Assembly (NCBI RefSeq): GCF_902652985.1
Contig: NC_047016.1
Span: 39,804,001-39,868,000 of the forward strand
Length of the DNA: 64,000 nt
Direction: 5' to 3'
DNA from: Pecten maximus
Taxonomy: Eukaryota
The translations under genes and the position numbers were made by a program. Shown here piece after piece: positions 3,001-54,069 of this stretch. Below the pieces are notes generated by a model, which made no database searches, had not been told where the DNA came from, and saw only the letters and a program-made list of their open reading frames with translations. The stretch's first letter is position 1; each line of letters opens with the position of its first letter.

Positions 3001-6000
3001 GACAACTTAACAAAAAAAAATAATGTCGTTAGCGTCATTTTGAAAGGATTTACATTTGCTACTGTTGCTGGGTAATTGTAAAAAAGAAAACGTTTACTAT
3101 TCAACAGACACGGAAATATGTAAGTACTGTTTTTGTACTGCATATATGTAATCATTCTTTCATAAATATTTATCGGAATTTTTTTTTAAAAATTTGGAAC
3201 CTTACCCCTTCAGTAAAATCGGTGAGGAGTTCCTGGTAGTATGAGCTAGAGCTGTTCTCTAAAGCCTGTGTGTCCGTTACAGTGTAGACAAAGGAGGTTA
3301 ATAAACGGAACATCCGTCCAGTAAAACCTGAAAACGGCGAGAGAAAGTAGCAAAACCAATTCAGGACTCAAATGCATATATAATACCAAAACAAGCATAA
3401 TATATACAAGTATCTTCGTATGGAACTTACCCAAAGAAATCGAAAAAATGCTTTTTGAATGAACATGTACTTTTTTAATAGATTTGTCCGCTCATTTCTA
3501 AACATTTTCATACTAACGGTTAAGATGTTAAACAAAATTTGCTCTCTCTCTCTCATATGAAGTTACATCCCTGAAATCAGATGCATTTGTACAGAGAGAG
3601 TTAGAGAGTAAATACATATTCTTGTTACGTCACTGAACTCATGTCTAATAACATATGATTCACTATTGATAATAGAGGTATCTCTGTAATATGTGAAATA
3701 CCTACGGCTTTGGCCAGGTAAACTGAAGCACGTGGTATCTTACCTGTACATGATACGATTCCATCTCCAGGAAGTCCCTCTTCACATTTGCAGTAGAATG
3801 ATCCTATCGTATTGGTACAGTTGGCGATTGGTAGACATATATCTGTTCCATTAGCGCACTCATCTATATCTGTTAAATGAAAAACATACATTCTGCACAT
3901 TGGGGACACGACGTAAACATCATTTCTCATAACAAGGTACGGAAGTTACATCAATTAGTTTTTTGCAAAACGTTAGATTTCTTTATATAAAAAAATTACT
4001 TAATATTTGCCAGCACAAGTTGTAGTGTTTTCGATATCATCAAACTTCTCGAAACAAGGCTCACATTTGCAAAAACAAGTGAAAAAGGAAAAAAAAATCT
4101 GTAATGGCCAGATTATTATACCAAGATATTCAATCTTATCTATAGAAATGAAAATATAATAATTATTACCTACATTCTATGATATACGCAAGTGACAAGC
4201 TGATGTATAATGTGTACATGCCTTATGATATGGACATAGAGGCTTCTGGCCTGCGTCCATTATTTTCTAATAAATCTATTCAAGTATAATCAAAAGACCG
4301 AACATGATTAGAACAGTATATTTCATAATGAACAGGACCACAGAAGTGTTTATTTATGTCAATTTGATAGGTAATTTATATATTGACTAATCAACATTAC
4401 AAACCTGTACAGTAATATCCATCCCCTTCAAAGCCTGGTTTACACGAACAAGAGAAGGAGGCTTCAGTGTTATTACAGTCAGCGTACTGACTGCAGTTAT
4501 CTGCACCGATGAGGCATTCGTTAATGTCTGCAATAAAGTAATTTTTGCTATCTTTTATAATCATATCATGTTTTTCTATTACAATATAACATGCATAATG
4601 TGTCTATTACGTTGCTTTATTATCAAAAGTGAATCGTTTATATCGTATCATCAATATAATAAAGTAGAATATATGATACAATAATTCGGTCCACTGAAAT
4701 TATGGTTAATATATATTTTGGGCTAGACGTTAATTTAGGAATCAATTTTACATTATAGAAAAACGTGAAAAGATATGTACTGTTGAAAGTAATTTACATT
4801 AAGAAGGTTAAAAATAAGATATTGTATAAGGACGTCAATTCTTATATGAAAAATATAACAAACACCACGTACACAAACCAATTGAAGCAAATAATGTTAA
4901 TCAGTATATAACCAAAAGGCAAATAAAAGCCTAAACGAGGCTAACATGTTGCTTTGTACAGGTACTTGCCTTATATAGCCCGTATACTTGTATAAATGAA
5001 TGAAGTAAGCAATACACTTATCTTATGACGTAAAAGATAAAACAATGTCTACCAAACGTACCTATGCATGTGCCGTTGCCGGCATTCGTGTATCCCTGGA
5101 CACAGACACACGTGTATGAGCCGTTAGTGTCTTTACAGTCAGCATGAGCACCACATATATTAGCTACGTCACATTCATTGACGTTTGTGTCGCATGTCAT
5201 TCCTGTCCATCCCGTCATGCAGCTACACGTACCGTTGAACTTATCACATGACGTCGTATGGTTGAAGTTGCACATGCATGAACTATCACAATGATAACCA
5301 TATCGCCCGTTGGGACATTCTGAAATAAAAAAGACACGTACAAAACTAAGCAAACTCATTTTGGTATATGAAAATAGTTTTGCTGCAGGAATAAGCTTCT
5401 TCAGTCATTGTAAATAGAAAGATAATATACATGGAAAACATTTAAATTTTAAGTATGCACCGACATATTAAAGAAATGTGAATAAAGTCACACCATATAT
5501 TAGCATTCACATACAGAGGTAGATACAGTATAGCCACAATAAGTGAAATAGCACCATACAGCTATTCCGCCCTTTTAGTTAGGACTCGTCAGTGATACAA
5601 GAAGCACCATACAGCTGTTCTGCCCTTCTATCTAGGGCTAAGACTCTTCAGTTATGCTAAGGATCTGAAGTATTGATCGCTAGGAGACGACTGAAATAGG
5701 TCGTTAGAAATATTAGTATCTAGATGAGGTGGCAAAATAGCCTCATAATTCAATGAATTTTTAATATTTTTGATATTGTACTTCAAAAAAAAAAGCCAAG
5801 TGCGTGTGGATATTTTAAAATGTGTCACTATTCAAATGAATGTATATATGTATTCAAAAGAACAATGAATTCATATCATAAGTGGAACGTGAAACTTACC
5901 GACACACAACCCGTTGTTAGATACAGCGTATCCACGGTTACAGTCACATACAAATGATCCATTGGTGTCCAGACAAGTGGTCAACGCAGGACAATTGTTC

Positions 6001-12000: not shown

Positions 12001-15000
12001 TGGAAGAACAACGTTGTGACCTTCTATGGGTTCAACAACGAACAAAAACTTGAAAAAATCACGACTTCCATTGCAAAATTATCAAAGTAAAATAAAAAAT
12101 CATAAGATATACATGTAATGTAAATTTAATATAGAGTTACTTACTGACACAAGTGTTGTTGATGTGCTCGTATCCACTGAAACAATAACATATATACAAG
12201 CCGTTGATATTCTGACAGGTTTTGTCCGCTCCACAGATGAGAGGGTTGATCTCGCACTCATTGATATCTGTTTTACACTCAGTCCCAGTCCATCCACTCA
12301 TACAAATGCATCCCAGAGCCACATCACATGTAGACGCCCCTACACCACACGTGCAGGTACTGGCACAATTTTGGCCATATGCTGGAAACTCGCATGCTAA
12401 ATAAAAGGAGACAACGTATGGAAGGATTGTAAAAAAAAGCACAAACGATGTAAACACATGGCAGTATATAGTGTGTTTTTAGATACAACAGAGCCATTTA
12501 AACTACATATTTTTTTTAATATTCTATGAAGAATTCTTTAGGTGACAGAGGAAGCTCAAAAAGGTCGAAAAATGTCAGGTGCAATACTCATTCATTATAT
12601 CAATTGCATTATTTTCAATTTTTATTTCGAATGAATGGTGAGCATATGTATATATTCTGACCAGCGCCACTATCAAAACGAAACAAAACGTGATATGCAG
12701 GTTTTAAAGTTTATAATGTATATTAGTAGTTTGAAATATTTCCCTATTGGATTTGTACATTTTTAGTATTGGAAGCCTAGTTTTACCGTTACAAGACGTT
12801 TTGTCCGGATCCAGAGAGTACCCAACTGCACATGTACACTCGTAGCTCCCAACGTTGTTGCTGCACTCATGTTGGCAAATATTCCTCTCACATTCGTTGA
12901 TATCTGAAAAAAAGTTATGTTCGTGTAATAAGATAATAATATCTAAAAATTTAAAGGCCTGTCACACTGTTCCCGGCTGTTCATACGTGCTCTGACCTGT
13001 CATTACCTCGCAGGTACATATATAGCCCGGCCGGTCTTGTGCGCAGGTGTACAAGGAGGTCCAAGATGTTCCGGATAAGTTGAATGAGTTTTCCCGAAAG
13101 CTCCGCGCAGAACACCAGCAGGAGGTCCTTAGCGAACGTAACTCACAGACGCTAGACCCGCTTCAAGACAGTAGGTTGACCGTGAACATGTGGCCACCTC
13201 GCATATGCACATGTCAGCTGTGGTCTCTGAGCAAATTGAGGTCATATTGGGAGCCATCGTATGTCTTCCTGCTGGTAATCTGAGGGCCGACTGTGGCCAA
13301 GCTTGTGGCATTCTGCGAGGACCTCTCTCAAATAAATAGTCCCCTCAGAAAGATTCCTTCAGTTATCAGTCTGGTTATGAGGATACAGGACCTCTAAACA
13401 GTATAGCAAACACAGCATGCATTCAGTATCATTTCGGAAGTTACCTGGTGATCGCTTGTAAGGATCAACAACATTGTACATGCATATGAAGAATTTGAAG
13501 TTTTCCGACGGGCATTTTAACACTATGACATCAGGCTGAGAAATAAGGACCTGTATGTATATGCCCTCGCGTCTTGCAGGCAACTCCAATGCAGGTATCA
13601 TGTAGCTGGCACGCAAGTAGCCCGCCTGCAGCTCGGAGCTAACACGGATCTCTCTGGAATATCACATGAGTCATCCTCGCGACTGCTGCGCAGGGTACGC
13701 AAAGCCAATGAAGAATGCATGGAACGATGTAACTGGGTCTTACGGCCTTCAGTGGCGAATTATAAGGATTTGTGTTTTCAAAACCATTCATATCAGTTGA
13801 CCTTTCAATGCATCATCTATTATTAATACTATACGATATAAGATCTTAAATATGTGTTGCCTAATGATATTCAGCTGACATCTTCAACAAAAAATATGGA
13901 TAAGGATAAACACACTTGATAAACAGGCTCTCAAAGCATTGTATTAAAACATTTGGATGTGATAAATAACAACAATTTATACAAGATATAATGTCCCAAC
14001 TATATACAGACATTTCGTATTGATATAAAATAATTCTTACCAACGCAATTCTTCCCAGAAGAATCAAGCTCGTATCCTCCGGGACATTGACACTTGAAAT
14101 TCTCGCTGTCGGTAGCATTTGAGCAGGCATACGAGCAATTAAGGGTTTCACAAACATCAACAACTGTAACTGATAAATAATTATATTCATTTATAAGCAA
14201 TAGACAAATTATGCTTTTGTTCTAATACTTAAATGTGCAGTATGGTGCAGCAAGTGTTTTACGTAAAACGTGCGAATGGTCTTAGTCTAGAAGGAAACCG
14301 GAGAAACCCTACGTGGTCGGGCAGGTGACCCCATACCATGTCACGCCTGATCGGAGAATCGAACCCCGCCCGCCTAGGTGAAAGGCAAGTGTGTTACTAC
14401 TGTGCCATCCCATCCGACCACTCAAAGGGCACCACTGTACCTGTGCCACTCGACTACTCAAAATTGATAACTCCAAATTGATACTTCTTCTTTCAAATAG
14501 TTTCAAAAAGTATCGTTACGCATGTCTTTGCAATGATAATACTTCGTGAAATGTATCATGTGTGTGAACAGCTCCTTTAGCGGCTTATAATCTCAATAAT
14601 AATCCATATGGTGATAGCTTTATAAATAAACAATAATAATAAACAAATTCAAATATGTAACCTTCAGTTCAACAACACATAGCGTACACGATACATTGTG
14701 TCTACATTTAGATGTATGTAACAGAGCATATGATTAATCAAATTGAAATCACTGCCTCCGCTAGGGATCGAACCCGGGACCTCTGGCTTACTAGTTTTAC
14801 GCTCAACTGATCGAGCTAAAGAGAAGATCTCTCTAGCCGAGCAGTATATTGCGGCTTGTATTTACTAGGGTTACATACTCCCCCTCCAGGAATGAACTCA
14901 TCCCCGAAGTATGAAATACACTGTATAGTTAATTCTAGTTGTTAGGTAAGGTAACCCTTTCTATTTCTTAAAAATCAACAAAAGTGACAAACACTCCCTT

Positions 15001-30000: not shown

Positions 30001-33000
30001 TTGGACATTCCAGTGTGTGTGTAAAGCAAATTTTCAGACGTTTAGTGGGAAGATTAGAATTCGCTGCCGTAGTAATATCATACTGCCACAGTACTGTTGC
30101 CGTAGTACTACCATACTGCCACAGTCCTGTTGCCGTAGTACTACCATACTGCCACAGTACTGCTGCCGTAGTACTACCATACTGCCACAGTACTGCTGCC
30201 GTAGTACTACCATACTGCCACAGTACTGTTGCCGTAGTACTACCATACTGCCACAGTACTGCTGCCGTATTACTACCATACTGCCACAGTACTGCTGCCG
30301 TAGTACTACTATACTGCCACAGTACTGCTGCCGTAGTACTACCATACTGCCACAGTACTGCTGCCGTATAACTACCATACTGCCACAGTACTGCTGCCGT
30401 AGTACTACCATACTGCCACAGTACTGCTGCCGTATTACTACCATACTGCCACAGTACTGCTGCCGTAGTACTACCATACTGCCACAGTACTGCTGCCATA
30501 GTACTACATACTGCCACAGTACTGCTGCTGTAGTACTACCATACTGCCACAGTACTGCTGCCGTAGGACTACCATACTGCCACAGTACTGTTGCCGCAGT
30601 ACTACCATACTGCCACAGTACTGCTGCCGTAGTACTACCATACTGCCACAGTACTGCAGCCGTAGTACTACCATACTGCCACAGTACTGCTGCCGTAGTA
30701 CTACCATACTGCCACAGTACTGCTGCCGTATTACTACCATACTGCCACCGTAATTCTGCCGTAGTACTACCATACTGCTACCGTAATTATGCCGTAGTGC
30801 TACCATACTGCCACAGTACTGTTGCCGTAGTACTACCATACTGCCACAGTACTGCTGCCGTATTACTAACATACTGCCACCGTAATGCTGCCGTAGTACT
30901 ACCATACTGCCACCGTAATTCTGCCGTAGTGCTACCATACTGCCACAGTACTGTAGCCGTAGTACTACCATACTGCCACAGTACTGCTGCCGTATTACTA
31001 CCATACTGCCACACTACTGCTGCCGTATTACCACCATACTGACACAGTACTGCTGCCGTATTACTTCCATACTGCCACAGTACAACTGCTGTAGTACTAC
31101 CATACTGCCACAGTACTGTTGCCGTATTACTACCATACTGCTGCCGTGTTACCACCATACTGCCACAGTACTGCTGCCGTAGTACTACCATACTGCCACC
31201 GTAATGCCGCCGTAGTGCTACCATACTGCCACAGTACTGTTGCCGATTACTAACATCAACAGGATCGTGAATTAGCATGCTTCGTAACTATCTGGATTGG
31301 GTTTGGAAGCATAAGTGAAAACGCACGATATTGTCGTGAGAGTTCATCAGATAAAATAGCATCACCTTATTTTTCAAGAACTCTGAAGCTGTTTAAACTA
31401 TATCATTTCACTTCCGGTTGTGAAATCGAACCCAAGTCGTTTAGGTGAATGGCGATGCCACATGCCCAATATCAGGTCTCTTAGTTTCTTGGTTATTAGA
31501 AAGATGTTGTTTAAAAAGGCAGATATTACACCATGCTTTTTGCTTACTTGCATTTCAGGCAGGTCAGCTAAAAAATTACAGTATCCAAATATACATATAA
31601 TACAGAAAGTTGATCTCTAAGATATCACAAATTACACTGAAAACAAATAACAAAACTTAAAACACACCAACCTGTAGCAGTTGTTGTAGGGACATCAGTG
31701 GTTGTTGTCGGGACATCTGTGGTTGTTGTAGGGACATCGGTGGTTGTTGTAAGGACAACCGTTGTTGTAGGGACAGCTGTGGTTGTTGTAGGGACATCGG
31801 TGGTTGTTGTAGGGACAGCTGTGGTTGTTGTAGGGACATCGGTTGTTGTTGTAGGGACATCGGTGGTTGTTGTAGGGACAGCTGTGGTTGTGGTAGGGAC
31901 ATCGGTGGTTGTTGTAGGGATATCGGTGGTCGATGGAACTGTAGTGGTTACAGGAGCGACAGTTGTCGTAGGAGCTTTAGTGGTTGTAAGACCGCTACTG
32001 GTAGTCTCTGTAAGACCGACAGTAGTTGAAGGACCGGTAGTCGTTGGCTGTGTAGAACCAGAAGTGGTTGAAGGACCGGCAGTCGTTGACTGTGTAAAAC
32101 CAGAAGTGGTTGAAGGACCGGTAGTCGTTGACTGTGTAGAACCAGAAGTGGTTGAAGGACCGGTAGTCGTTGACTGTGTAGAACCAGAAGTGGTTGAGGG
32201 ACCGGTAGTTGTTGACACAGTAGAACCAGAAGTGGTTGAAGTACCGGTAGTCGTTGACACAGTAGAACCAGCAGTGGTTGAAGGACCGGTAGTCGTTGAC
32301 ACAGTAGAACCAGCAGTGGTTGAAGGACCGGTAGTCGTTGACTGTGCAAAACCAGAAGTGGTTGAAGTACCGGTAGTCGTTGACTGTGTAGAACCAGAAG
32401 TGGTTGAAGGACCGGTAGTCGTTGACACAGTAGAACCAGAAGTGGTTGAAGGACCAGTAGTTGATGACTGAGTAGAACCAGAAGTGGTTGAAGGACCGGT
32501 AGTCGTTGACTGTGTAGAACCAGAAGTGGTTGAAGGACCGGTAGTCGTTGACTGTGTAGAACCAGAAGTGGTTGAAGGACCGGTAGTTGTTGACTGAGTA
32601 GAACCAGAAGTGGTTGAAGGAGCGGTAGTCGTTGACTGTGTAGAACCAGAAGTGGTTGAAGGACCGGTAGTTGTTGACTGTGTAGAACCAGAAGTGGTTG
32701 AAGGACCGGTAGTTGTTGAGTGTGTAGAACCAGAAGTGGTTGAAGGACCGGTAGTTGATGACTGAGTAGAACCAGAAGTGGTTGAAGGACCGGTAGTTGT
32801 TGAGTGTGTAGAACCAGCAGTGGTTGAAGGACCGGTAGTCGTTGACACGGTAGAACCAGAAGTGGTTGAAGGACCGGTAGTTGTTGTCACAGTAGAACCA
32901 GAAGTGGTTGAAGGACCGGTAGTTGTTGTCACAGTAGAACCAGAAGTGGTTGAAGGACCGGTAGTTGATGACTGAGTAGAACCAGAAGTGGTTGAAGGAC

Positions 33001-36000
33001 CGGTAGTCGTTGACACAGTAGAACCAGAAGTGGTTGAAGGACCGGTAGTTGATGACTGAGTAGAACCAGAAGTGGTTGAAGGACCGGTAGTCGTTGACTG
33101 TGTAGAACCAGAAGTGGTTGAAGGACCGGTAGTTGTTGACTGTGTAGAACCAGAAGTGGTGGAAGGACCGGTAGTTGTTGACTGTGTAGAACCAGCAGTG
33201 GTTGAAGGACCGGTAGTCGTTGACACAGTAGAACCAGAAGTGGTTGAAGGACCGGTAGTCGTTGACACAGTAGAACCAGAAGTGGTTGAAGGACCGGTAG
33301 TTGTTGTCACAGTAGAACCAGAAGTGGTTGAAGGACCGGTAGTCGTTGACACAGTAGAACCAGAAGTGGTTGAAGGACCGGTAGTCGTTGACTGTGTAGA
33401 ACCAGAAGTGGTTGAAGGACCGGTAGTCGTTGACTGTGTAGAACCAGAAGTGGTTGAAGGACCGGTAGTCGTTGACTGTGTAAAACCAGAAGTGGTTGAA
33501 GGACCGGTAGTCGTTGACTGTGTAGAACCAGAAGTGGTTGAAGGACCGGTAGTCGTTGACTGTGTAGAACCAGAAGTGGTTGAAGGACCGGTAGTCGTTG
33601 ACTGTGTAAAACCAGAAGTGGTTGAAAGACCGGTAGTCGTTGACTGTGTAGAACCAGAAGTGGTTGAAGGACCGGTAGTTGTTGACTGAGTAGAACCAGA
33701 AGTGGTTGAAGGACCGGTAGTTGTTGACACAGTAGAACCAGAAGTGGTTGAAGGACCGGTAGTTGTTGAGTGTGTAGAACCAGCAGTGGTTGAAGGACCG
33801 GTAGTTGTTGACTGTGTAGAACCAGAAGTGGTTGAGGGACCGGTAGTTGTTGACACAGTAGAACCAGAAGTGGTTGAAGGACCGGTAGTCGTTGACTGTG
33901 TAGAACCAGAAGTGGTTGAAGGACCGGTAGTTGTTGACTCAGTAGAACCAGAAGTGGTTGAAGGACCGGTAGTCGTTGACAGTGTAGAACCAGAAGTAGT
34001 TGAAGGACCGGTAGTTGTTGACTCAGTAGAACCAGCAGTGGTTGAATGACCGGTAGTTGTTGACACAGTAGAACCAGGAGTGGTTGAAGGACCGGTAGTC
34101 GTTGACTCAGTAGAACCAGAAGTGGTTGAAGGACCGGTAGTCGTTGACTGTGTAGAACGAGAAGTGGTTGAAGGACCGGTAGTCGTTGACTGTGTAGAAC
34201 CAGAAGTGGTTGAAGGACCCGTAGTCGTTGATACAGTAGAACCAGCAGTGGTTGAAGGACCGGTAGTTGTTGACTCAGTAAAACCAGAAGTGGTTAAAGG
34301 ACCGGTAGTTGTTGACACAGTAGAACCAGAAGTGGTTGAAGGACCGGTAGTCGTTGACTCTGTAGGACCAGCAGTGGTTGTAGGACCGGTAGTTGTTGTC
34401 ACTGTAGGACCAGCAGTGGTTGAAGGACCGGTAGTCGTTGACTCAGTGGAACCAGAAGTCGTTGAAGGACCGGTAGTCGTTGACACAGTAGAACCAGAAG
34501 TGGTTGAAGGACCGGTAGTTGTTGTCACAGTAGAACCAGAAGTGGTTAAAGGACCGGTAGTCGTTGACACAGTAGAACCAGAAGTGGTTGAAGGACCGGT
34601 AGTCGTTGACTGTATAGAACCAGAAGTGGTTGAAGGACCGGTAGTCGTTGACTGTGTAGAACCAGAAGTGGTTGAAGGACCGGTAGTTGTTGACTGTGTA
34701 GAACCAGAAGTGGTTGAAGGACCGGTAGTTGATGACTGAGTAGAACCAGAAGTGGTTGAAGGACCGGTAGTTGTTGAGTGTGTAGAACCAGCAGTGGTTG
34801 AAGGACCGGTAGTTGTTGACTGTGTAGAACCAGAAGTGGTTGAGGGACCGGTAGTTGTTGACACAGTAGAACCAGAAGTGGTTGAAGGACCGGTAGTCGT
34901 TGACTGTGTAGAACCAGAAGTGGTTGAAGGACCGGTAGTTGTTGACTCAGTAGAACCAGAAGTGGTTGAAGGACCGGTAGTCGTTGACAGTGTAGAACCA
35001 GAAGTAGTTGAAGGACCGGTAGTTGTTGACTCAGTAGAACCAGCAGTGGTTGAATGACCGGTAGTTGTTGACACAGTAGAACCAGGAGTGGTTGAAGGAC
35101 CGGTAGTCGTTGACTCAGTAGAACCAGAAGTGGTTGAAGGACCGGTAGTCGTTGACTGTGTAGAACGAGAAGTGGTTGAAGGACCGGTAGTCGTTGACTG
35201 TGTAGAACCAGAAGTGGTTGAAGGACCCGTAGTCGTTGATACAGTAGAACCAGCAGTGGATGTAGAACCGGTAGTTGTTGTCACTGTAGGACCAGCAGTG
35301 GTTGTCGGACCAATAGTTGTTGTCACTGTAGGACCAGCAGTGGTTGTAGGACCAGTAGTTGTTGTCACGGTAGGACCAGCTGTGGTTGTCGGACCGGTAG
35401 TTGTTGTCACTGTAGGACCAGCAGTGGTTGAAGGACCGGTAGTCGTTGTCTCTGTAGGACCAGCAGTGGTTGTAGGACCGGTAGTTGTTGTCACTGTAGG
35501 ACCAGTAGTGGATGTAGAACCAGAAGTGGTTGAAGGACCGGTAGTCGTTGACTCTGTAGGACCAGAAGTGGTTGAAGGACCGGTAGTCGTTGACTCTGTA
35601 GGACCAGCAGTGGTTGTAGGACCGGTAGTTGTTGTCACTGTAGGACCAGCAGTGGTTGAAGGACCGGTAGTCGTTGACTCAGTGGAACCAGAAGTGGTTG
35701 CAGGACCGAAAGTTGTTGTCACTGTAGGACCAGCAGTGGTTGTATGTGCAGAAGTTGTTGTCACTGTAGGACCAGCAGTGGTTGTAGGACTAGTAGTTGT
35801 TGACTCTGTAGGACCAGCAGTGGTTGTCGGACCAGTAGTTGTTGCCACTGTAGGACCAGCAGTGGTTGTAGGTGCAGAAGTTGTTGCCACTGTAGGACCA
35901 GCAGTGGATGTCGGACCAATAGTTGTTGTCACTGTAGGACCAGCAGTGGTTGTCGGACCGGTAGTTGTTGTCACTGTAGGACCAGCAGTGGTTGTAGGAC

Positions 36001-39000
36001 CAGTAGTTGTTGTCACTGTAGGACCAGCAGTGGTTGTCGGACCGGTAGTTGTTGTCACGGTAGGACCAGCAGTGGTTGTAGGACTGGTAGTTGTTGTCAC
36101 TGTAGGACCAGCGGTGGTTGTAGGACCAGTAGTTGTTGTCACGGTATGACCAGCAGTGGATGTAGAACCGGTAGTTGTTGTCACTGTAGGACCAGCAGTG
36201 GTTGTCGGACCAATAGTTGTTGTCACTGTAGGACCAGCAGTGGTTGTAGGACCAGTAGTTGTTGTCTCTGTAGGACCAGCAGTGGATGTAGAACCGGTAG
36301 TTGTTGTCACTGTAGGACTAGCAGTGGTTGTCGGACCAGTAGTTGTTGTCTCTGTAGGACCAGAAGTGGTTGTAGGACCAGTAGATGTTGTCTCTGTAGG
36401 ACCAGCAGTGGATGTAGAACCGGTAGTTGTTGTCACTGTAGGACCAGCAGTGGTTGTCGGACCAATAGTTGTTGTCACTGTAGGACCAGCAGTGGTTGTA
36501 GGACCAGTAGTTGTTGTCACGGTAGGACCAGCTGTGGTTGTAGGACCGGTAGTTGTTGTCACTGTAGGACCAGCAGTGGTTGAAGGACCGGTAGTCGTTG
36601 TCTCTGTAGGACCAGCAGTGGTTGTAGGACCGGTAGTTGTTGTCACTGTAGGACCAGTAGTGGATGTAGAACCAGAAGTGGTTGAAGGACCGGTAGTCGT
36701 TGACTCTGTAGGACCAGAAGTGGTTGAAGGACCGGTAGTCGTTGACTCTGTAGGACCAGCAGTGGTTGTAGGACCGGTAGTTGTTGTCACTGTAGGACCA
36801 GCAGTGGTTGAAGGACCGGTAGTCGTTGACTCAGTGGAACCAGAAGTGGTTGCAGGACCGAAAGTTGTTGTCACTGTAGGACCAGCAGTGGTTGTATGTG
36901 CAGAAGTTGTTGTCACTGTAGGACCAGCAGTGGTTGTAGGACTAGTAGTTGTTGACTCTGTAGGACCAGCAGTGGTTGTCGGACCAGTAGTTGTTGCCAC
37001 TGTAGGACCAGCAGTGGTTGTAGGTGCAGAAGTTGTTGCCACTGTAGGACCAGCAGTGGATGTCGGACCAATAGTTGTTGTCACTGTAGGACCAGCAGTG
37101 GTTGTCGGACCGGTAGTTGTTGTCACTGTAGGACCAGCAGTGGTTGTAGGACCAGTAGTTGTTGTCACTGTAGGACCAGCAGTGGTTGTCGGACCGGTAG
37201 TTGTTGTCACGGTAGGACCAGCAGTGGTTGTAGGACTGGTAGTTGTTGTCACTGTAGGACCAGCGGTGGTTGTAGGACCAGTAGTTGTTGACTCTGTAGG
37301 ACCAGCAGTGGTTGTCGGACCGGTAGTTGTTGTCACTGTACGACCAGCAGTGGTTGTAGGACCAATAGTCGTTGACTCTGTAGGACCAGCAGTTGTTGAA
37401 GGTGAAGAAGTTGTTGTCAATGTAGGACCAGCAGTGGTTGTAGGACCAGTAGTTGTTGTCACTGTAGGACCAGCAGTGGTTGTCGGACCAGTAGTTGTTG
37501 TCACTGTAGGACCAGCAGTGGTTGTAGGACCAGTAGTTGTTGTCACTGTAGGACCAGCAGTGGTTGTCGGACCAGTAGTCGTTGACTCTGTAGGACCAGC
37601 AGTAGTTGTAGGTGCAGAAGTTGTTGTCACTGTAGGACCAGCAGTGGTTGTCGGACCAGTGGTTGTTGTCACGGTAGGACCAGAAGTGGTTGTCGGACCG
37701 GTAGTTGTTGTCACTGTAGGACCAGCAGTGGTTGTAGGACCGGTAGTTGTTGTCTCTGTAGGACCAGCAGTGGTTGTAGGACCGGTAGTTGTTGTCACTG
37801 TAGGACCAGCAGTGGTTGTAGGACCGATAGTTGTCACTGTAGGACCAGCAGTGGTTGTAGGACCAGTAGTTGTTGTCACGGTATGACCAGCAGTGGATGT
37901 AGAACCGGTAGTTGTTGTCACTGTAGGACCAGCAGTGGTTGTCGGACCAATAGTTGTTGTCACTGTAGGACCAGCAGTGGTTGTAGGACCAGTAGTTGTT
38001 GTCTCTGTAGGACCAGCAGTGGATGTAGAACCGGTAGTTGTTGTCACTGTAGGACTAGCAGTGGTTGTCGGACCAGTAGTTGTTGTCTCTGTAGGACCAG
38101 AAGTGGTTGTAGGACCAGTAGATGTTGTCTCTGTAGGACCAGCAGTGGATGTAGAACCGGTAGTTGTTGTCACTGTAGGACCAGCAGTGGTTGTCGGACC
38201 AATAGTTGTTGTCACTGTAGGACCAGCAGTGGTTGTAGGACCAGTAGTTGTTGTCACGGTAGGACCAGCTGTGGTTGTCGGACCGGTAGTTGTTGTCACT
38301 GTAGGACCAGCAGTGGTTGTAGGACCAGTAGTTGTTGACTCTGTAGGACCAGCAGTGGTTGTAGGACCAGTAGTTGTTGTCACTGTAGGACCAGCAGTGG
38401 TTGTAGGACCAGTAGTTGTTGACTCTGTAGGACCAGCAGTGGTTGTCGGGCCGGTAGTTGTTGTCTCTGTAGGACCAGCAGTGGTTGTAGGACCTGTAGT
38501 TGTTGTCTCTGTAGGACCAGCAGTGGTTGTAGGACCAGTATTTGTTGTCACTGTAGGACTAGCAGTGGTTGTAGGACTGGTAGTTGTTGTCTCTGTAGGA
38601 CCAGCAGTGGTTGTCGGACCAGTAGTTGTTGTCACGGTAGGACCAGCAGTGGTTGTCGGACCGGTAGTTGTTGTCCCGGTAGGACCAGCAGTGGTTGTCG
38701 GACCGGTAGTTGTTGTCACTGTAGGACCAGCAGTGGTTGTAGGACCAGTAGTTGTTGACTCTGTAGGACCAGCAGTGGTTGTCGGGCCGGTAGTTGTTGT
38801 CTCTGTAGGACCAGCAGTGGTTGTAGGACCTGTAGTTGTTGTCTCTGTAGGACCAGCAGTGGTTGTAGGACCAGTAGTTGTTGTCACTGTAGGACTAGCA
38901 GTGGTTGTCGGACCAGTAGTTGTTGTCACTGTAGGACCAGCAGTGGTTGTAGAACCGGTAGTTGTTGTCTCTGTAGGACCAGCAGTGGTTGTAGGACCAG

Positions 39001-42000
39001 TAGTTGTTGTCTCTGTAGGACCAGTAGTGGTTGTAGGACCGGTAGTTGTTGTCACTGTAGGACCAGCAGTGGTTGTAGGACTAGTAGTTGTTGACTCTGT
39101 AGGACCAGCAGTGGTTGTAGGTGCAGAAGTTGTTGTCACTGTAGGACCAGCAGTGGTTGTCGGACCGGTAGTTGTTGTCTCTGTAGGACCAGCAGTGGTT
39201 GTCGGACCAGTAGTAGTTGTTGTCACTGTAGAACCAGCAGTGGTTGTAGGACCAGTAGTTGTTGTCACTGTAGGACCAGTAGTTGTTGTCACTGTAGGAC
39301 CAGTAGTAGTTGTTGTCACTGTAGGACCAGCAGTGGTTGTAGGACCAGTAGTTGTTGTCACTGTAGGACCAGTAGTTGTTGTCACTGTAGGACCAGTAGT
39401 TGTTGACTCTGTAGGACCAGTAGTTGTTGTCACTGTAGGACCAGTAGTAGTTGTTGACTCTGTAGGACCAGTAGTTGTTGTCACCGTAGGACCAGTAGTT
39501 GTTGACTCTGTAGGACCAGTAGTTGTTGTCACTGTAGGACCAGTAGTAGTTGTTGACTCTGTAGGACCAGTAGTTGTTGTCACTGTAGGACCAGTAGTAG
39601 TTGTTGACTCTGTAAGATTAAAACCAACAAATAGTGATAAGTAAGATTTCTATGAGACTCTAGGATTAATTCTTTGTTCGAATGATAACCTGATGTTGAT
39701 GTCAATAAGGGCTTTTGGTTCAATGTTGTAGGTTTTTTGAGAAATGCCTATGGGACACGATCAGGTCAGGTATTGTGTAATTAATCAGTTATCGCTAAGA
39801 CAAAATTTCCAAAGCGGTCAATAACATGTGAACTTTGACCTTGGCCAATGATCAATTTTATTTAATCAAAAGGATTAGTTGATGTTACTATGACAAGCTT
39901 TTTACTCTCTTAATTTCAAAATTGACATTTGTCTTCAGTGATGAGAACAAGAAGAAGAAGAAGGAGAAGGAGAAGAAGAAGAAGAAGAAGAAGAAGAAGA
40001 AGAAGAAGAAGAAGAAGAAGAGCCATGTGTGACGTTAGTCAAAATTGTTGATATCATTTAGAAATCCTATCATCTTTTTTAATCAACAATATTTTGATTA
40101 CATACCTGAAAAAGTGGTTCCTGGTGTGGTGGTACCTAAAACATCAAATGTTAAAATATAAAAGTTCGAACACAAAATGCCATTAACTGAAAAAAAAACA
40201 TCTGTTAAACAAACTTGGCTTGATATTCAAAATGAACAATTTTGGTAAGGCATCAACATTTTACTCTAGCGAAAATTTCGAAATAGATAGCGGCCATCAA
40301 TTGAGGATATAAAGAGATGTGTGCTTATTGATAAACTTAAGTTGTAACAACGACAGTACTTGTTATTATTGTTGGTACATCTGTAGTAGTGGTTACACCA
40401 GCAGTACTGGTCGTTGCTGGTACATCTGTAGTAGTGGTAACACCGGCAGTACTGGTCGTTGGTACATCGTNNNNNNNNNNNNNNNNNNNNNNNNNNNNNN
40501 NNNNNNNNNNNNNNNNNNNNNNNNNNNNNNNNNNNNNNNNNNNNNNNNNNNNNNNNNNNNNNNNNNNNNNNNNNNNNNNNNNNNNNNNNNNNNNNNNNNN
40601 NNNNNNNNNNNNNNNNNNNNNNNNNNNNNNNNNNNNNNNNNNNNNNNNNNNNNNNNNNNNNNNNNNNNNNNNNNNNNNNNNNNNNNNNNNNNNNNNNNNN
40701 NNNNNNNNNNNNNNNNNNNNNNNNNNNNNNNNNNNNNNNNNNNNNNNNNNNNNNNNNNNNNNNNNNNNNNNNNNNNNNNNNNNNNNNNNNNNNNNNNNNN
40801 NNNNNNNNNNNNNNNNNNNNNNNNNNNNNNNNNNNNNNNNNNNNNNNNNNNNNNNNNNNNNNNNNNNNNNNNNNNNNNNNNNNNNNNNNNNNNNNNNNNN
40901 NNNNNNNNNNNNNNNNNNNNNNNNNNNNNNNNNNNNNNNNNNNNNNNNNNNNNNNNNNNNNNNNNNNNNNTTTTAACACCGCAGTACTGGTCGTTGTTGG
41001 TACATCTGTAGTAGTGGTAACACCGGCAGTACTGGTCGTTGTTGGTACATCTGTAGTAGTGGTAACACCGGCAGTACTGGTCGTTGTTGGTACATCTGTA
41101 GTAGTGGTAACACCGGCAGTACTGGTCGTTGTTGGTACATCTGTAGTAGTGGTTAACACCGGCAGTACTGGTCGTTGTTGGTACATCTGTAGTAGTGGTA
41201 ACACCGGCAGTACTGGTCGTTGTTGGTACATCTGTAGTAGTGGTAACACCGGCAGTACTGGTCGTTGTTGGTACATCTGTAGTAGTGGTTAACACCGGCA
41301 GTACTGGTCGTTGTTGGTACATCTGTAGTAGTGGTAACACCGGCAGTACTGGTCGTTGTTGGTACATCTGTAGTAGTGGTAACACCGGCAGTACTGGTCG
41401 TTGTTGGTACATCTGTAGTAGTGGTAACACCGGCAGTACTGGTCGTTGTTGGTACATCTGTAGTAGTGGTAACACCGGCAGTACTGGTCGTTGTTGGTAC
41501 ATCTGTAGTAGTGGTAACACCGGCAGTACTGGTCGTTGTTGGTACATCTGTAGTAGTGGTAACACCGGCAGTACTGGTCGTTGTTGGTACATCTGTAGTA
41601 GTGGTAACACCGGCAGTACTGGTCGTTGTTGGTACATCTGTAGTAGTGGTAACACCGGCAGTACTGGTCGTTGTTGGTACATCTGTAGTAGTGGTAACAC
41701 CGGCAGTACTGGTCGTTGTTGGTACATCTGTAGTAGTGGTAACACCGGCAGTACTGGTCGTTGTTGGTACATCTGTAGTAGTGGTTAACACCGGCAGTAC
41801 TGGTCGTTGTTGGTACATCTGTAGTAGTGGTAACACCGGCAGTACTGGTCGTTGTTGGTACATCTGTAGTAGTGGTAACACCGGCAGTACTGGTCGTTGT
41901 TGGTACATCTGTAGTAGTGGTAACACCGGCAGTACTGGTCGTTGTTGGTACATCTGTAGTAGTGGTAACACCGGCAGTACTGGTCGTTGTTGGTACATCT

Positions 42001-45000
42001 GTAGTAGTGGTAACACCGGCAGTACTGGTCGTTGTTGGTACATCTGTAGTAGTGGTAACACCGGCAGTACTGGTCGTTGTTGGTACATCTGTAGTAGTGG
42101 TTACACCGGCAGTACTGGTCGTTGTTGGTACATCTGTAGTAGTGGTTACACCGGCAGTACTGGTCGTTGTTGGTACATCTGTAGTAGTGGTAACACCGGC
42201 AGTACTGGTCGTTGTTGGTACATCTGTAGTAGTGGTAACACCGGCAGTACTGGTCGTTGTTGGTACATCTGTAGTAGTGGTAACACCGGCAGTACTGGTC
42301 GTTGTTGGTACATCTGTAGTAGTGGTAACACCGGCAGTACTGGTCGTTGTTGGTACATCTGTAGTAGTGGTAACACCGGCAGTACTGGTCGTTGTTGGTA
42401 CATCTGTAGTAGTGGTACACCGGCAGTACTGGTCGTTGTTGGTACATCTGTAGTAGTGGTAACACCGGCAGTACTGGTCGTTGTTGGTACATCTGTAGTA
42501 GTGGTAACACCGGCAGTACTGGTCGTTGTTGGTACATCTGTAGTAGTGGTAACACCGGCAGTACTGGTCGTTGTTGGTACATCTGTAGTAGTGGTAACAC
42601 CGGCAGTACTGGTCGTTGTTGGTACATCTGTAGTAGTGGTAACACCGGCAGTACTGGTCGTTGTTGGTACATCTGTAGTAGTGGTACACCGGCAGTACTG
42701 GTCGTTGTTGGTACATCTGTAGTAGTGGTAACACCGGCAGTACTGGTCGTTGTTGGTACATCTGTAGTAGTGGTAACACCGGCAGTACTGGTCGTTGTTG
42801 GTACATCTGTAGTAGTGGTAACACCGGCAGTACTGGTCGTTGTTGGTACATCTGTAGTAGTGGTTAACACCGGCAGTACTGGTCGTTGTTGGTACATCTG
42901 TAGTAGTGGTAACACCGGCAGTACTGGTCGTTGTTGGTACATCTGTAGTAGTGGTAACACCGGCAGTACTGGTCGTTGTTGGTACATCTGTAGTAGTGGT
43001 AACACCGGCAGTACTGGTCGTTGTTGGTACATCTGTAGTAGTGGTAACACCGGCAGTACTGGTCGTTGTTGGTACATCTGTAGTAGTGGTAACACCGGCA
43101 GTACTGGTCGTTGTTGGTACATCTGTAGTAGTGGTAACACCGGCAGTACTGGTCGTTGTTGGTACATCTGTAGTAGTGGTACACCGGCAGTACTGGTCGT
43201 TGTTGGTACATCTGTAGTAGTGGTAACACCGGCAGTACTGGTCGTTGTTGGTACATCTGTAGTAGTGGTAACACCGGCAGTACTGGTCGTTGTTGGTACA
43301 TCTGTAGTAGTGGTAACACCGGCAGTACTGGTCGTTGTTGGTACATCTGTAGTAGTGGTAACACCGGCAGTACTGGTCGTTGTTGGTACATCTGTAGTAG
43401 TGGTAACACCGGCAGTACTGGTCGTTGTTGGTACATCTGTAGTAGTGGTAACACCGGCAGTACTGGTCGTTGTTGGTACATCTGTAGTAGTGGTTACACC
43501 GGCAGTACTGGTCGTTGTTGGTACATCTGTAGTAGTGGTAACACCGGCAGTACTGGTCGTTGTTGGTACATCTGTAGTAGTGGTAACACCGGCAGTACTG
43601 GTCGTTGTTGGTACATCTGTAGTAGTGGTTACACCGGCAGTACTGGTCGTTGTTGGTACATCTGTAGTAGTGGTAACACCGGCAGTACTGGTCGTTGTTG
43701 GTACATCTGTAGTAGTAGTAACACTGGCGGTACCGGTCGTTGTTGGTGCATCTGTAGTAGTGGTTACACCGGCAGTACTGGTCGTTGTTGGTACATCTGT
43801 AGTAGTGGTAACACCGGCAGTACTGGTCGTTGTTGGTACATCTGTAGTAGTGGTAACACCGGCAGTACTGGTCGTTGTTGGTACATCTGTAGTAGTGGTT
43901 ACACCGGCAGTACTGGTCGTTGTTGGTACATCTGTAGTAGTGGTACACCGGCAGTACTGGTCGTTGTTGGTACATCTGTAGTAGTGGTAACACCGGCAGT
44001 ACTGGTCGTTGTTGGTACATCTGTAGTAGTGGTAACACCGGCAGTACTGGTCGTTGTTGGTACATCTGTAGTAGTGGTAACACCGGCAGTACTGGTCGTT
44101 GTTGGTACATCTGTAGTAGTGGTAACACCGGCAGTACTGGTCGTTGTTGGTACATCTGTAGTAGTGGTAACACCGGCAGTACTGGTCGTTGTTGGTACAT
44201 CTGTAGTAGTGGTAACACCGGCAGTACTGGTCGTTGTTGGTACATCTGTAGTAGTGGTAACACCGGCAGTACTGGTCGTTGTTGGTACATCTGTAGTAGT
44301 GGTACACCGGCAGTACTGGTCGTTGTTGGTACATCTGTAGTAGTGGTAACACCGGCAGTACTGGTCGTTGTTGGTACATCTGTAGTAGTGGTAACACCGG
44401 CAGTACTGGTCGTTGTTGGTACATCTGTAGTAGTGGTAACACCGGCAGTACTGGTCGTTGTTGGTACATCTGTAGTAGTGGTAACACCGGCAGTACTGGT
44501 CGTTGTTGGTACATCTGTAGTAGTGGTAACACCGGCAGTACTGGTCGTTGTTGGTACATCTGTAGTAGTGGTAACACCGGCAGTACTGGTCGTTGTTGGT
44601 ACATCTGTAGTAGTGGTTACACCGGCAGTACTGGTCGTTGTTGGTACATCTGTAGTAGTGGTTACACCGGCAGTACTGGTCGTTGTTGGTACATCTGTAG
44701 TAGTGGTAACACCGGCAGTACTGGTCGTTGTTGGTACATCTGTAGTAGTGGTAACACCGGCAGTACTGGTCGTTGTTGGTACATCTGTAGTAGTGGTAAC
44801 ACCGGCAGTACTGGTCGTTGTTGGTACATCTGTAGTAGTGGTAACACCGGCAGTACTGGTCGTTGTTGGTACATCTGTAGTAGTGGTAACACCGGCAGTA
44901 CTGGTCGTTGTTGGTACATCTGTAGTAGTGGTAACACCGGCAGTACTGGTCGTTGTTGGTACATCTGTAGTAGTGGTAACACCGGCAGTACTGGTCGTTG

Positions 45001-48000
45001 TTGGTACATCTGTAGTAGTGGTAACACCGGCAGTACTGGTCGTTGTTGGTACATCTGTAGTAGTGGTAACACCGGCAGTACTGGTCGTTGTTGGTACATC
45101 TGTAGTAGTGGTTACACCGGCAGTACTGGTCGTTGTTGGTACATCTGTAGTAGTGGTAACACCGGCAGTACTGGTCGTTGTTGGTACATCTGTAGTAGTG
45201 GTAACACCGGCAGTACTGGTCGTTGTTGGTACATCTGTAGTAGTGGTAACACCGGCAGTACTGGTCGTTGTTGGTACATCTGTAGTAGTGGTAACACCGG
45301 CAGTACTGGTCGTTGTTGGTACATCTGTAGTAGTGGTTACACCGGCAGTACTGGTCGTTGTTGGTACATCTGTAGTAGTGGTAACACCGGCAGTACTGGT
45401 CGTTGTTGGTACATCTGTAGTAGTGGTAACACCGGCAGTACTGGTCGTTGTTGGTACATCTGTAGTAGTGGTAACACCGGCAGTACTGGTCGTTGTTGGT
45501 ACATCTGTAGTAGTGGTAACACCGGCAGTACTGGTCGTTGTTGGTACATCTGTAGTAGTGGTACACCGGCAGTACTGGTCGTTGTTGGTACATCTGTAGT
45601 AGTGGTAACACCGGCAGTACTGGTCGTTGTTGGTACATCTGTAGTAGTGGTAACACCGGCAGTACTGGTCGTTGTTGGTACATCTGTAGTAGTGGTAACA
45701 CCGGCAGTACTGGTCGTTGTTGGTACATCTGTAGTAGTGGTACACCGGCAGTACTGGTCGTTGTTGGTACATCTGTAGTAGTGGTAACACCGGCAGTACT
45801 GGTCGTTGTTGGTACATCTGTAGTAGTGGTTACACCGGCAGTACTGGTCGTTGTTGGTACATCTGTAGTAGTGGTAACACCGGCAGTACTGGTCGTTGTT
45901 GGTACATCTGTAGTAGTGGTAACACCGGCAGTACTGGTCGTTGTTGGTACATCTGTAGTAGTGGTAACACCGGCAGTACTGGTCGTTGTTGGTACATCTG
46001 TAGTAGTGGTACACCGGCAGTACTGGTCGTTGTTGGTACATCTGTAGTAGTGGTAACACCGGCAGTACTGGTCGTTGTTGGTACATCTGTAGTAGTGGTA
46101 ACACCGGCAGTACTGGTCGTTGTTGGTACATCTGTAGTAGTGGTAACACCGGCAGTACTGGTCGTTGTTGGTACATCTGTAGTAGTGGTAAACCGGCAGT
46201 ACTGGTCGTTGTTGGTACATCTGTAGTAGTGGTAACACCGGCAGTACTGGTCGTTGTTGGTACATCTGTAGTAGTGGTAACACCGGCAGTACTGGTCGTT
46301 GTTGGTACATCTGTAGTAGTGGTAACACCGGCAGTACTGGTCGTTGTTGGTACATCTGTAGTAGTGGTAACACCGGCAGTACTGGTCGTTGTTGGTACAT
46401 CTGTAGTAGTGGTAACACCGGCAGTACTGGTCGTTGTTGGTACATCTGTAGTAGTGGTAACACCGGCAGTACTGGTCGTTGTTGGTACATCTGTAGTAGT
46501 GGTACACCGGCAGTACTGGTCGTTGTTGGTACATCTGTAGTAGTGGTAACACCGGCAGTACTGGTCGTTGTTGGTACATCTGTAGTAGTGGTACACCGGC
46601 AGTACTGGTCGTTGTTGGTACATCTGTAGTAGTGGTAACACCGGCAGTACTGGTCGTTGTTGGTACATCTGTAGTAGTGGTACACCGGCAGTACTGGTCG
46701 TTGTTGGTACATCTGTAGTAGTGGTAACACCGGCAGTACTGGTCGTTGTTGGTACATCTGTAGTAGTGGTAACACCGGCAGTACTGGTCGTTGTTGGTAC
46801 ATCTGTAGTAGTGGTAACACCGGCAGTACTGGTCGTTGTTGGTACATCTGTAGTAGTGGTAACACCGGCAGTACTGGTCGTTGTTGGTACATCTGTAGTA
46901 GTGGTAACACCGTCAGTGCTGGTCGTTGTTGGTACTCTCTGTATTAGTGGTTACAACCGGCAGGTACTGGTCGTTTTTGGTACAATCTGTAGTCGTGGTT
47001 ACAACACCGGCAAGTACTGTCGTTGTTGGTACATCTGGGGGTTCGTAGATGTTGTATTAGTCGTTTCCTCCGTACTTGTTGGTATAGATGTGGTGTGAAT
47101 GTTTGTTGATGTTTGTGGACTGATTGTTATTTTTATCAGCTGGCCGCAATTATCCTATTGTTACCCCCAAACGGGCTTTTCCATAGGTCGTGTAAACTTC
47201 TCTGGAAACAGAACAAAAAATATTTTCAATTAAATCGATGTGAACCTAGAAATATCCTAAACTGATTTTGATAAGAAAAATAGTCAATTAAATGTTTTAA
47301 TAAAACCATGGAAAAAAAGAAAACCTAACTCCTATGGCAAGATCCACATCATCAAGTCATTTATGATTATCCCAATTTAACCACTTATTTACATCTCTTC
47401 CTAACAAGTGAAAAGGTGATAATGAATACATTCATTAATTATTCGAATTCTTAATATGGATAGTAACACTGACAAAGTTAAAAGACGCATTGTTTGTTCA
47501 AAGATCAGTGTAAAGGAGGTTGAAAATGATAAATCTAGATGCAATTTTATAACTCTCTGAAATTGGGGTTGGGTCAGAAACTTATAACACTGAAGGGAAT
47601 GGAAAATCATCTTAAAGAGGAATTTTGATGTGCTCTTCTATAATTGGTGGGGAATATCTATCCACTGTAGTATATTATGTACTAATCATTTTTGGGTGAC
47701 GTTTTCCATGCCCTGGTATAATTGATTAACGTCTAGAAGGGAAATAAGAACCGCCACAAAATTCATTTTTGACACGATGAATTGGGGATAATGACATAAC
47801 GGTGCTGGTAAACCTGTGTTCTATAAATCATTTTATAATCAAGATACATCAATTTGAAGACCTTCTAAAGAGTTCAGAGGACTAACTTTCTATTTCATTT
47901 GAAGAACTTCACTAGATAGCAATTACATACAAATTTTTTCAGTTCCAAGGATTAATATTCTGCAGTTCGGAAATGTTCGGCCAGATCCTCTACCACAGCC

Positions 48001-51905: not shown

Positions 51906-52568
51906 ATCAATTAAAATTAATTTGAAACAAAATTTTAATTTGATATTGTTACGCAATGTTTTGGTTCTAAAAGAAGTGTGTATTAATCCCAATACCTATA
52001 TACAGTGTACATTTTAATTATTACCTATTTAGAGTGATAACGAAATTAGGATTATAGTATTTTATCTTGATATTGATTTAGTTTCACATCATGTTAAATA
52101 GTAGTTATTCGGTTCGACATGATCTTCAATGTATAAAATTTTGAAAACATTTTCAAATTTGCGTAAAAACCCAACTTACCACATTAAATATATATCGATA
52201 CTGACAATACTTTGAAAAATCGATAGAAAGGGTTCTTATAGAAGGTCAGACATTATGTAACTTGTCCAGGATAATACCACTTCCCTGGTTGCACGTGTAA
52301 ACCTACGCGATCACGTGGGTTCTCCGGATTCCTCCCGCCGTTAGACTGCTCGCGCGCCTCAATGCGGACAATTAAGTTGTTTTAAGTCCGAGTTTTGAGA
52401 GTTATCTCCCTTACAACACAACACGTTAGCCACAACGTTTGACAGTCTGCTCAGCTAATCCTTCTCACATACATTTCATAGACTAAGTAAGCGTTCGATT
52501 AATAATTATTCTTTCAGATTGATTGATGTTATGTCAAACAATTAATTCGTGTAACATCGATTGAGAAA

Positions 52569-53911: not shown

Positions 53912-54069
53912 TAAATACGGCATGAACAATTTTTGACGTGTTTGAATGTAATTAGTTAAACTTTTACTTCAGTAACGTCTTTTTACCTATTTTAACGTGC
54001 TTTCGTAGTAAAGCATTCTTCAGTATAATTGCTCGTTCTTTGCTTGTAGTTAAGTGTTCATGTTGTCGA

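What the first reader, a model, noticed from the sequence alone, without database searches (positions are those of the whole stretch)
5551..5657. Tandem pair of minimal hammerhead-like motifs in a mucin intron, in sense orientation
Seen: two head-to-tail motifs with stem I (GUAUCA/UGGUGC), a CUGANGA core, stem II (GUCC/GGGC), a palindromic C/UAGCUG stem-III region and a GUA cleavage triplet. Known: minimal type-I hammerheads with a palindromic stem III occur in tandem in Penelope-like elements and related retroelements and cleave best as dimers. Both copies have a mutated GAAA box (GGAA, AGAA). Inference: relics of a ribozyme-bearing retroelement, probably inactive.
Basis: partly seen in the sequence, partly recalled or inferred. 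Interest (0 to 1): 0.7.

Follow-up and report, generated by a model that had tools for sequence, protein, structure and literature searches.

The report
Decayed double-hammerhead retrozyme copy
The two motifs are a broken copy of a self-cutting-RNA (hammerhead) motif that sits inside an old 394-base non-coding repeat found all over this genome; in many copies the motif is repeated head-to-tail every 49 bases with one shared junction, which suggests the jumping ancestor carried a built-in double ribozyme, while this intron copy is probably inactive.

Summary
The pair is part of a dispersed 394-nt non-coding monomer (about 380 nt present here, 5469-5848, minus strand, in a predicted 580-nt intron of a mucin-like gene). 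Copies show a fixed 3' end, ragged 5' ends, partial tandems and one back-to-back pair, as in non-LTR retrozymes and Penelope-type insertions. The added feature: the hammerhead occurs as 49-nt head-to-tail arrays (2 to over 40 units; 2,419 exact junctions). Two adjacent units fold into a nested double hammerhead whose inner half is a compact type III ribozyme. The junction carries bases that single-unit copies lack, so it likely arose once in the mobile master. Copies are old (20-26% flank divergence) and the core is not better conserved than loops. Here both GAAA boxes are mutated; the junction ribozyme has one core defect (A13G). No cleavage or autonomous partner shown. This scan noted similar decayed hammerhead minisatellites in other genomes. 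Verdict: new variant of a known kind, locally a relic.

The parts
5604..5657 (-). Hammerhead unit A (upstream): CUGAAGA intact, GAAA box changed to AGAA, enlarged loop 2; supplies the GUA site (predicted cut between 5610 and 5609) for the junction ribozyme
   Evidence: sequence; unit profile hit
5599..5603 (-). 5-nt spacer UUCUU (family form CCCUA); becomes loop 1 of the junction ribozyme
5551..5598 (-). Hammerhead unit B (downstream): CUGACGA intact, helix II GUCC/GGGC, GGAA (A13G at 5567)
   Evidence: RF00163 22.2 bits
5559..5617 (-). Junction ribozyme, type III topology: helix III 7 bp, helix I 6 bp with 5-nt loop, helix II; only core defect A13G
   Evidence: predicted minimum-energy fold -16.3 kcal/mol, z -1.68
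5664..5848 (-). 5' flank of the family monomer (about 190 nt)
   Evidence: 18 other loci found with this flank alone, 14 of them with an adjacent hammerhead unit
5469..5550 (-). 3' flank of the monomer (about 85 nt), ending at the family's fixed 3' end
   Evidence: profile hit 26 bits
5320..5899 (-). Predicted host intron between two EGF exons of a mucin-like gene
   Evidence: GT-AG sites read by eye; ORFs; Pfam EGF_CA
12420..12690 (-). Second copy of the family in the same gene; hammerhead lost
22285..22615 (-). Third copy in the same gene, three degenerate hammerhead units

Best explanation
The two motifs are a decayed two-unit hammerhead tract inside one copy of an old, dispersed 394-nt non-coding element that likely moved as a non-LTR retrozyme using a Penelope-type reverse transcriptase, and this copy is probably unable to cut. 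Inferred mechanism: one duplication in the mobile master put two type I hammerheads 5 nt apart. Their palindromic helix III arms (ACAGCUGU) then pair with each other, so the RNA would carry its own dimer partner and the inner half would be a compact type III ribozyme. Target-primed copying from a fixed 3' point, sometimes for more than one unit length, would give the ragged 5' ends and partial tandems. After insertion the short tandem would either collapse to one unit (most copies) or grow as an ordinary minisatellite, without regard to ribozyme integrity. Shown: the family, its anatomy, the shared junction and the decay pattern. Predicted: the folds. Inferred: cleavage, circles, the mobilising enzyme and the order of events.
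For: Family with intact core: 528 exact 32-mers, control 0; all 20 RF00163 loci fetched carry the same unit. Monomer period 394 nt, 38% GC, close to the 350-390 bp mussel retrozyme repeat. Nine loci hold two hammerhead tracts joined through the linker. End asymmetry in loci not found with the linker: 14 of 32 5'-flank starts continue upstream into the linker, but only 3 of 31 3'-flank ends continue downstream, and those 3 lie on the 5' side of an insertion (p 0.004; without the loci used to train the linker profile 4 of 21 against 0 of 22, p 0.048). L005 has two back-to-back arms, both cut off inside the array, with 3' flanks pointing outward, as described for PLE insertions. Single origin of the junction: 2,419 exact 27-mers, control 0; spacer CCCTA in 40 of 47 loci with junctions; position -3 is C in 47 of 53 arrays against 9 of 34 single units, and position 1 is A in 33 of 53 against 6 of 34. 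The outer helix I ends G-C (first G 15 of 22, last C 22 of 26) and the inner one mostly U-A or U-G (U 447 of 499, A 310 of 499), as the nested fold needs. A natural 93-nt dimer folds as the nested double hammerhead (z -3.14). Three of nine tandem pairs mix one single unit with an array, which implies collapse or growth after insertion. Decay: conservation is about equal in core, loops and helices over 681 units in 65 loci, and arrays homogenise dead variants.
Against: No cleavage, circle or independent transcript was shown. No autonomous partner was found: 0 of 30 GIY-YIG loci and 0 of 20 longer PLE regions match any part of the element, and 0 of 95 family loci match 5 PLE ORFs; only a few PLE families were screened. 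The majority monomer folded as a circle is no more stable than shuffles (z -0.49, 60 shuffles), unlike the highly self-paired retrozyme circles described. No long young array of 394-nt monomers was seen. Exactly two units are rare (2 of 35 runs bounded by both flanks) and 33 of 37 runs in flank-found loci are single, so the dimer-master model needs frequent collapse. The internal position 1 is G in 135 of 499 junctions, so the U-A pair is not fixed, and the U may simply come from the duplication breakpoint. Two other segments of the monomer also formed 50-nt arrays (L101, L110), so array growth needs no ribozyme. At this locus the junction fold has probability 0.42-0.46 only for RNA ending within 8 nt of it with up to 100 nt upstream, and 0.01-0.12 once 20-50 nt more are added.
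Confidence: 0.68

Rival explanations
1. The master had one hammerhead. One array arose once as DNA and its junction spread between copies by ectopic gene conversion or by a second, contemporaneous master. The double-hammerhead fold is then a by-product of duplicating any motif with a palindromic helix III and was never selected.
For: 33 of 37 runs in flank-found loci are single and two-unit copies are rare. Other segments also formed 50-nt arrays. The window is full of 20-66-nt minisatellites. The core is not conserved above background.
Against: Flanks of single and array copies have the same majority sequence and divergence, with no diagnostic position after correction. Mixed tandem pairs argue against two separate masters without collapse. 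Both arms of L005 are truncated inside arrays. Conversion across dozens of loci on many chromosomes is not shown.
Confidence: 0.2
2. The 49-nt piece between two adjacent cut sites is itself circularised and copied round by reverse transcriptase (a micro-retrozyme), which wrote long arrays directly into the genome.
For: The unit length equals the distance between cut sites. 66 of 499 junctions in 25 of 47 loci keep a full type III form. Some arrays begin inside a unit with no 5' flank. Array-like contigs occur in RNA-labelled runs.
Against: Most arrays end in the element's 3' flank and many begin in its 5' flank, instead of standing free. Units show higher-order repeats and locally fixed dead variants typical of DNA slippage. 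Contigs give no strand, ends or circularity.
Confidence: 0.07
3. The element is the solo pseudo-LTR of an extinct or unsampled autonomous Penelope-like element rather than a free retrozyme.
For: PLE-like ends and partial tandems. Intact PLE families with their own hammerheads exist in this genome. Vertebrate retrozymes are reported to derive from pLTRs.
Against: No RT or endonuclease remnant within about 1.5 kb of 95 family loci. Upstream of the 5' flank the sequence runs into the previous monomer's linker, not into an ORF. This rival concerns the origin and is compatible with the best explanation.
Confidence: 0.05

Closest known systems
Metazoan non-LTR retrozymes (Cervera and de la Pena 2020, PMC7229834; passages and sections 14 and 17 read)
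   Same: Non-coding monomer of similar size (394 nt against 350-390 bp in mussel), GC under 45%, canonical type I hammerhead, tandem monomers, autonomous PLEs in the same genome.
   Different: Here the hammerhead itself is repeated at a 49-nt period inside the monomer. Copies are old, mostly solo or partial tandems. Circles and cleavage were not shown, and the monomer is not strongly self-paired.
Vertebrate retrozymes as PLE derivatives (bioRxiv 10.64898/2026.07.22.740005; parts 1-3 of 5 read, supplements not seen)
   Same: Reports family consensus lengths from 51 to 972 bp, so hammerhead-sized tandem units are already counted there, and proposes local minisatellite-type amplification.
   Different: The parts read do not describe arrays nested in a larger monomer, a shared junction, or a junction type III fold. 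The unseen supplementary tables may list comparable 51-bp families.
Dimeric (double) hammerheads and PLE min-HHRs (PMC4209133, parts 1-2 of 4 read; PMC6765202, passages; Lunse et al. 2016 not held, known only as cited)
   Same: A weak palindromic helix III rescued by pairing of two tandem motifs.
   Different: There the partners lie one element apart. Here they are 5 nt apart, so the inner ribozyme closes helix I with a 5-nt loop. Helix sizes match the canonical form, not the min-HHR.

Membership tests
Type I hammerhead ribozyme (family sequence) | Core C3-A9, G12-A15.1, U16.1-H17 with helices I-III | tested here: met
   528 exact intact cores; 21 matches over the RF00163 cut-off
Type I hammerhead ribozyme (this locus) | Intact GAAA box | tested here: not met
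   GGAA and AGAA; 22.2 bits against a cut-off of 34
Type I hammerhead ribozyme | Self-cleavage | not testable with these tools
   needs an in vitro assay
Non-LTR retrozyme | Non-coding monomer of about 170-400 nt, GC under 45%, with a type I hammerhead | tested here: met
   394 nt, 38% GC; no RT-like ORF in family loci
Non-LTR retrozyme | Tandem monomers | tested here: met
   9 loci with two hammerhead tracts joined through the linker; dimers and partial tandems only, no long arrays seen
Non-LTR retrozyme | Highly self-paired monomer | tested here: inconclusive
   majority sequence of 17 old copies folds at z -0.49; the true master sequence is uncertain
Non-LTR retrozyme | Expressed as circular RNA | tested here: inconclusive
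   only assembled contigs were available; they hold units but give no strand, ends or circles
Penelope-type insertion | Fixed 3' end, 5' truncation, partial tandems, inverted 5'-truncated neighbour | tested here: met
   the inverted pair rests on one locus (L005)
Autonomous PLE pseudo-LTR | Adjacent RT plus GIY-YIG ORF | tested here: not met
   0 of 95 family loci, 0 of 50 PLE regions
PLE min-HHR | Long helix II (7-8 bp), short helix I (4-5 bp), little or no helix III | tested here: not met
   helix II 4-5 bp, helix I 6 bp (definition)
Penelope-type insertion | Target-site features (tail, duplication, microsatellite target) | not tested
   copies are 20-26% diverged and no empty sites were available

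The most novel reading that the evidence does not exclude
A mobile RNA acquired a built-in double hammerhead by duplicating its type I ribozyme at a 5-nt spacing. This creates a self-sufficient type III hammerhead at every junction (a natural route from type I to type III). The hundreds of intact junctions left in this genome still cut transcripts and may release 49-nt ribozyme-only circles, which would be among the smallest retrozyme units known.
Probability: 0.15. Interest if true: 0.75.

Novelty: new variant of a known kind. Interest (0 to 1): 0.42.

Why it matters
For this locus it matters little: a broken repeat in an intron. For the family, it offers a concrete and cheap test of how weak type I hammerheads get their dimer partner. 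If the two-unit RNA cleaves much faster than one unit, it shows a simple duplication turning a dimer-dependent ribozyme into a self-sufficient type III one. It also implies that some intact junctions inside host transcripts could cut them. The fixed 3' end with more-than-unit 5' extensions fits the proposed, still unproven, copying of retrozyme RNA by Penelope-type enzymes.

Tried and rejected
(1) Selection for dead ribozymes. With the other 28 positions perfect, variant:intact odds were 588:528 for the GAAA box, against 314:528 (loop 2), 294:528 (helix II 3' strand) and 260:528 (helix III loop). But 31 of 51 variants among the first 100 listed change G12, a CpG position (counted by eye), and the CUGA box showed only 27 variants among the first 100 of 598 listed (counted by eye). 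A general excess of core damage is therefore not supported. Units in arrays are not independent, and the G12 excess is left unexplained.
(2) GGAA as a family variant: seen in 11 of 65 loci, but A13 is 99% conserved in loci found by flanks alone, so it was query bias.
(3) A separate array subfamily: no diagnostic flank position.
(4) A second ribozyme in the linker: no Rfam match in 17 loci other than hammerheads and three weak unrelated-looking hits, two of them to SNORD27 and DLEU2_5.
(5) Autonomous partner: none found. A search with a recalled Pfam accession failed because the library lacks it.
(6) Expression: no run held half of the query's words. One search was mis-aimed and covered only part of the L015 element. 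Contigs from RNA-labelled and unlabelled runs, including two other coded organisms, hold hammerhead units and short flank starts, but cannot show strand, ends or level, so they are not used as evidence.
(7) Sense-orientation bias: 3 of 3 copies in this gene are in sense, too few to mean anything.
(8) Literature: searches found no description of 49-nt hammerhead arrays nested in a retrozyme monomer. Lunse et al. 2016 was not held, and supplements of the bioRxiv paper and of PMC7229834 were not seen and may bear on novelty.
The host organism was not identified by any search.

Full report
Observation. The minus strand holds unit A (5657-5604), a 5-nt spacer and unit B (5598-5551). Unit B matches RF00163 weakly (22.2 bits, E 0.21) and nothing in the window reaches a gathering score. 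Both GAAA boxes are changed (AGAA, GGAA). The tract lies in sense orientation in a predicted GT-AG intron (5899-5320) between EGF exons of a minus-strand gene with NIDO, VWD and EGF_CA domains and long mucin-type repeats.

The family. A DNA search of the own genome gave 208 matches (lower bound). They are arrays of a 49-nt unit in which each unit is one hammerhead plus 5 nt. RF00163 found 29 matches, 21 over the cut-off, and none in 14 control genomes; all 20 loci fetched from that search carry the same unit. The intact 32-nt core occurs exactly 528 times and the 27-nt junction 2,419 times, with 0 for both reversed controls. With helix I 6 bp, helix II 4 bp and helix III 2 bp plus a palindromic loop, the motif fits the canonical metazoan type I description and not the min-HHR description in PMC4209133 (parts 1-2 of 4 read).

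The carrier. Arrays share about 190 nt upstream and 85 nt downstream. A search with the window's 5' flank alone found 18 other loci, 14 with an adjacent unit. A 68-nt linker joins the 3' flank to the next 5' flank, which gives a 394-nt monomer of 38% GC. Nine loci hold two hammerhead tracts joined through the linker. In loci not found with the linker, 14 of 32 5'-flank starts run on upstream into the linker, while 3 of 31 3'-flank ends run on downstream, all 3 on the 5' side of an insertion; without the ten training loci the counts are 4 of 21 and 0 of 22. L005 has two back-to-back arms truncated inside their arrays. Fixed 3' ends, 5' truncation, partial tandems and inverted truncated neighbours are described for PLE insertions (PMC8557442, passages). 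The size matches mussel retrozymes of 350-390 bp (PMC7229834, sections 14 and 17 read). Against a straightforward membership: the majority monomer is not more self-paired than shuffles (z -0.49), no long array of monomers was seen, and no RNA circle could be tested. The genome has intact RT plus GIY-YIG elements with their own, different hammerhead-like motifs, but none of 50 PLE regions matched the element and none of 95 family loci matched 5 PLE ORFs, so the mobilising enzyme is inferred only.

The junction. Helix III is the palindrome ACAGCUGU. One unit alone does not form helix III in the predicted ensemble, but a natural 93-nt dimer folds as a nested double hammerhead (z -3.14), and the inner half is a type III hammerhead with a 5-nt loop 1. 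Rfam independently scored array junctions as Hammerhead_3, below its cut-off. 66 of 499 junctions, in 25 of 47 loci, keep this form intact. The junction is shared and differs from single-unit copies: spacer CCCTA in 40 of 47 loci; position -3 is C in 47 of 53 arrays against 9 of 34 singles, and position 1 is A in 33 of 53 against 6 of 34. The terminal pair of helix I is G-C in the outer helix and mostly U-A or U-G in the inner one. Independent duplications at each locus would not share these bases, so the junction arose once. Flanks of single and array copies do not differ in sequence or age (0.20 and 0.21 for the 3' flank; 0.23 and 0.26 for the 5' flank), and 3 of 9 tandem pairs mix a single unit with an array. 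The simplest reading is a master with at least two units, followed by collapse or growth after insertion. It has costs: 33 of 37 runs in flank-found loci are single, exactly two units are rare (2 of 35 bounded runs), G remains at position 1 in 135 of 499 junctions, and two other segments of the monomer also made 50-nt arrays.

State of the copies. Over 681 gapless units in 65 of 93 loci (units with indels or more than 12 mismatches were left out), conservation is about 0.76-0.98 at core, loop and helix positions alike, apart from four variable helix I positions; 190 units have an intact core and 115 also intact helices. Many of these loci were found with hammerhead queries, which favours intact units: in flank-found loci only 8 of 51 units have an intact core. 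Arrays homogenise dead variants, as DNA-level minisatellite growth would. An apparent excess of GAAA-box damage came mostly from G12 and was not repeated in the CUGA box, so selection for dead copies was not accepted.

This locus. The junction ribozyme 5617-5559 uses unit B's core and unit A's GUA. It is the predicted minimum-energy fold of that 59-nt piece (-16.3 kcal/mol, z -1.68), and its only core defect is A13G. A13 belongs to the consensus core, and core-mutant repeats were rejected as non-functional in PMC3088659 (passages and section 8 read, figure not seen). That A13 changes cut activity by orders of magnitude is recalled, not from a call. In longer context the fold is a minority state. 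The outer ribozyme has two core changes. The tract is probably inactive. Two more decayed copies lie in other introns of the same gene.

Comparison and novelty. Retrozymes, dimeric hammerheads and PLE links are known (passages). A 2026 preprint lists retrozyme families down to 51 bp and proposes minisatellite-type growth (parts 1-3 of 5 read, supplements not seen). My searches found no account of hammerhead-only arrays nested in a monomer with one shared junction that forms a type III ribozyme; Lunse et al. 2016 could not be read. Earlier notes of this scan describe similar decayed hammerhead minisatellites and two-armed insertions in other genomes; they are unchecked and are not counted as support. 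Verdict: a real, locally dead copy of a new variant of the non-LTR retrozyme kind; interest 0.42.

Noticed in passing
window 12420-12690 (-) and 22285-22615 (-): Two further copies of the same element in introns of the same mucin-like gene, both in sense orientation; one has lost the hammerhead, the other has three dead units.
   Followed up: partly
L101 (G000:C2:45.46 Mb) and L110 (G000:C16:19.03 Mb): Other segments of the 394-nt monomer (the linker) are amplified as 50-nt arrays of about 9 and 30 units, nearly the same period as the hammerhead arrays.
   Followed up: partly
genome-wide pattern counts: G12 of the hammerhead is changed far more often than its CpG partner or other positions, including by transversions; unexplained.
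   Followed up: partly
L166, L167, L179 (PLE with 792-aa ORF): Young Penelope-like family with identical copies of a minimal hammerhead in direct and inverted terminal repeats.
   Followed up: no
L168, L169, L172, L175, L177, L178 (PLEs with 780-929-aa open frames): PLE families whose terminal repeats carry a hammerhead-like motif with the U3-A8 core covariation.
   Followed up: no
L163-L165, L170, L173: Tandem elements near contig ends with an upstream ORF of about 465-485 aa followed by a 755-aa RT plus GIY-YIG ORF; no hammerhead found with my descriptor.
   Followed up: no
L040:895-1592: Two hammerhead arrays in tail-to-tail inverted orientation.
   Followed up: no
window 16377-18081, 30063-31256, 52568-59457 and others: Many unrelated minisatellites of 19-66 nt, besides the 42- and 45-nt coding repeats at 31979-49917.
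   Followed up: no
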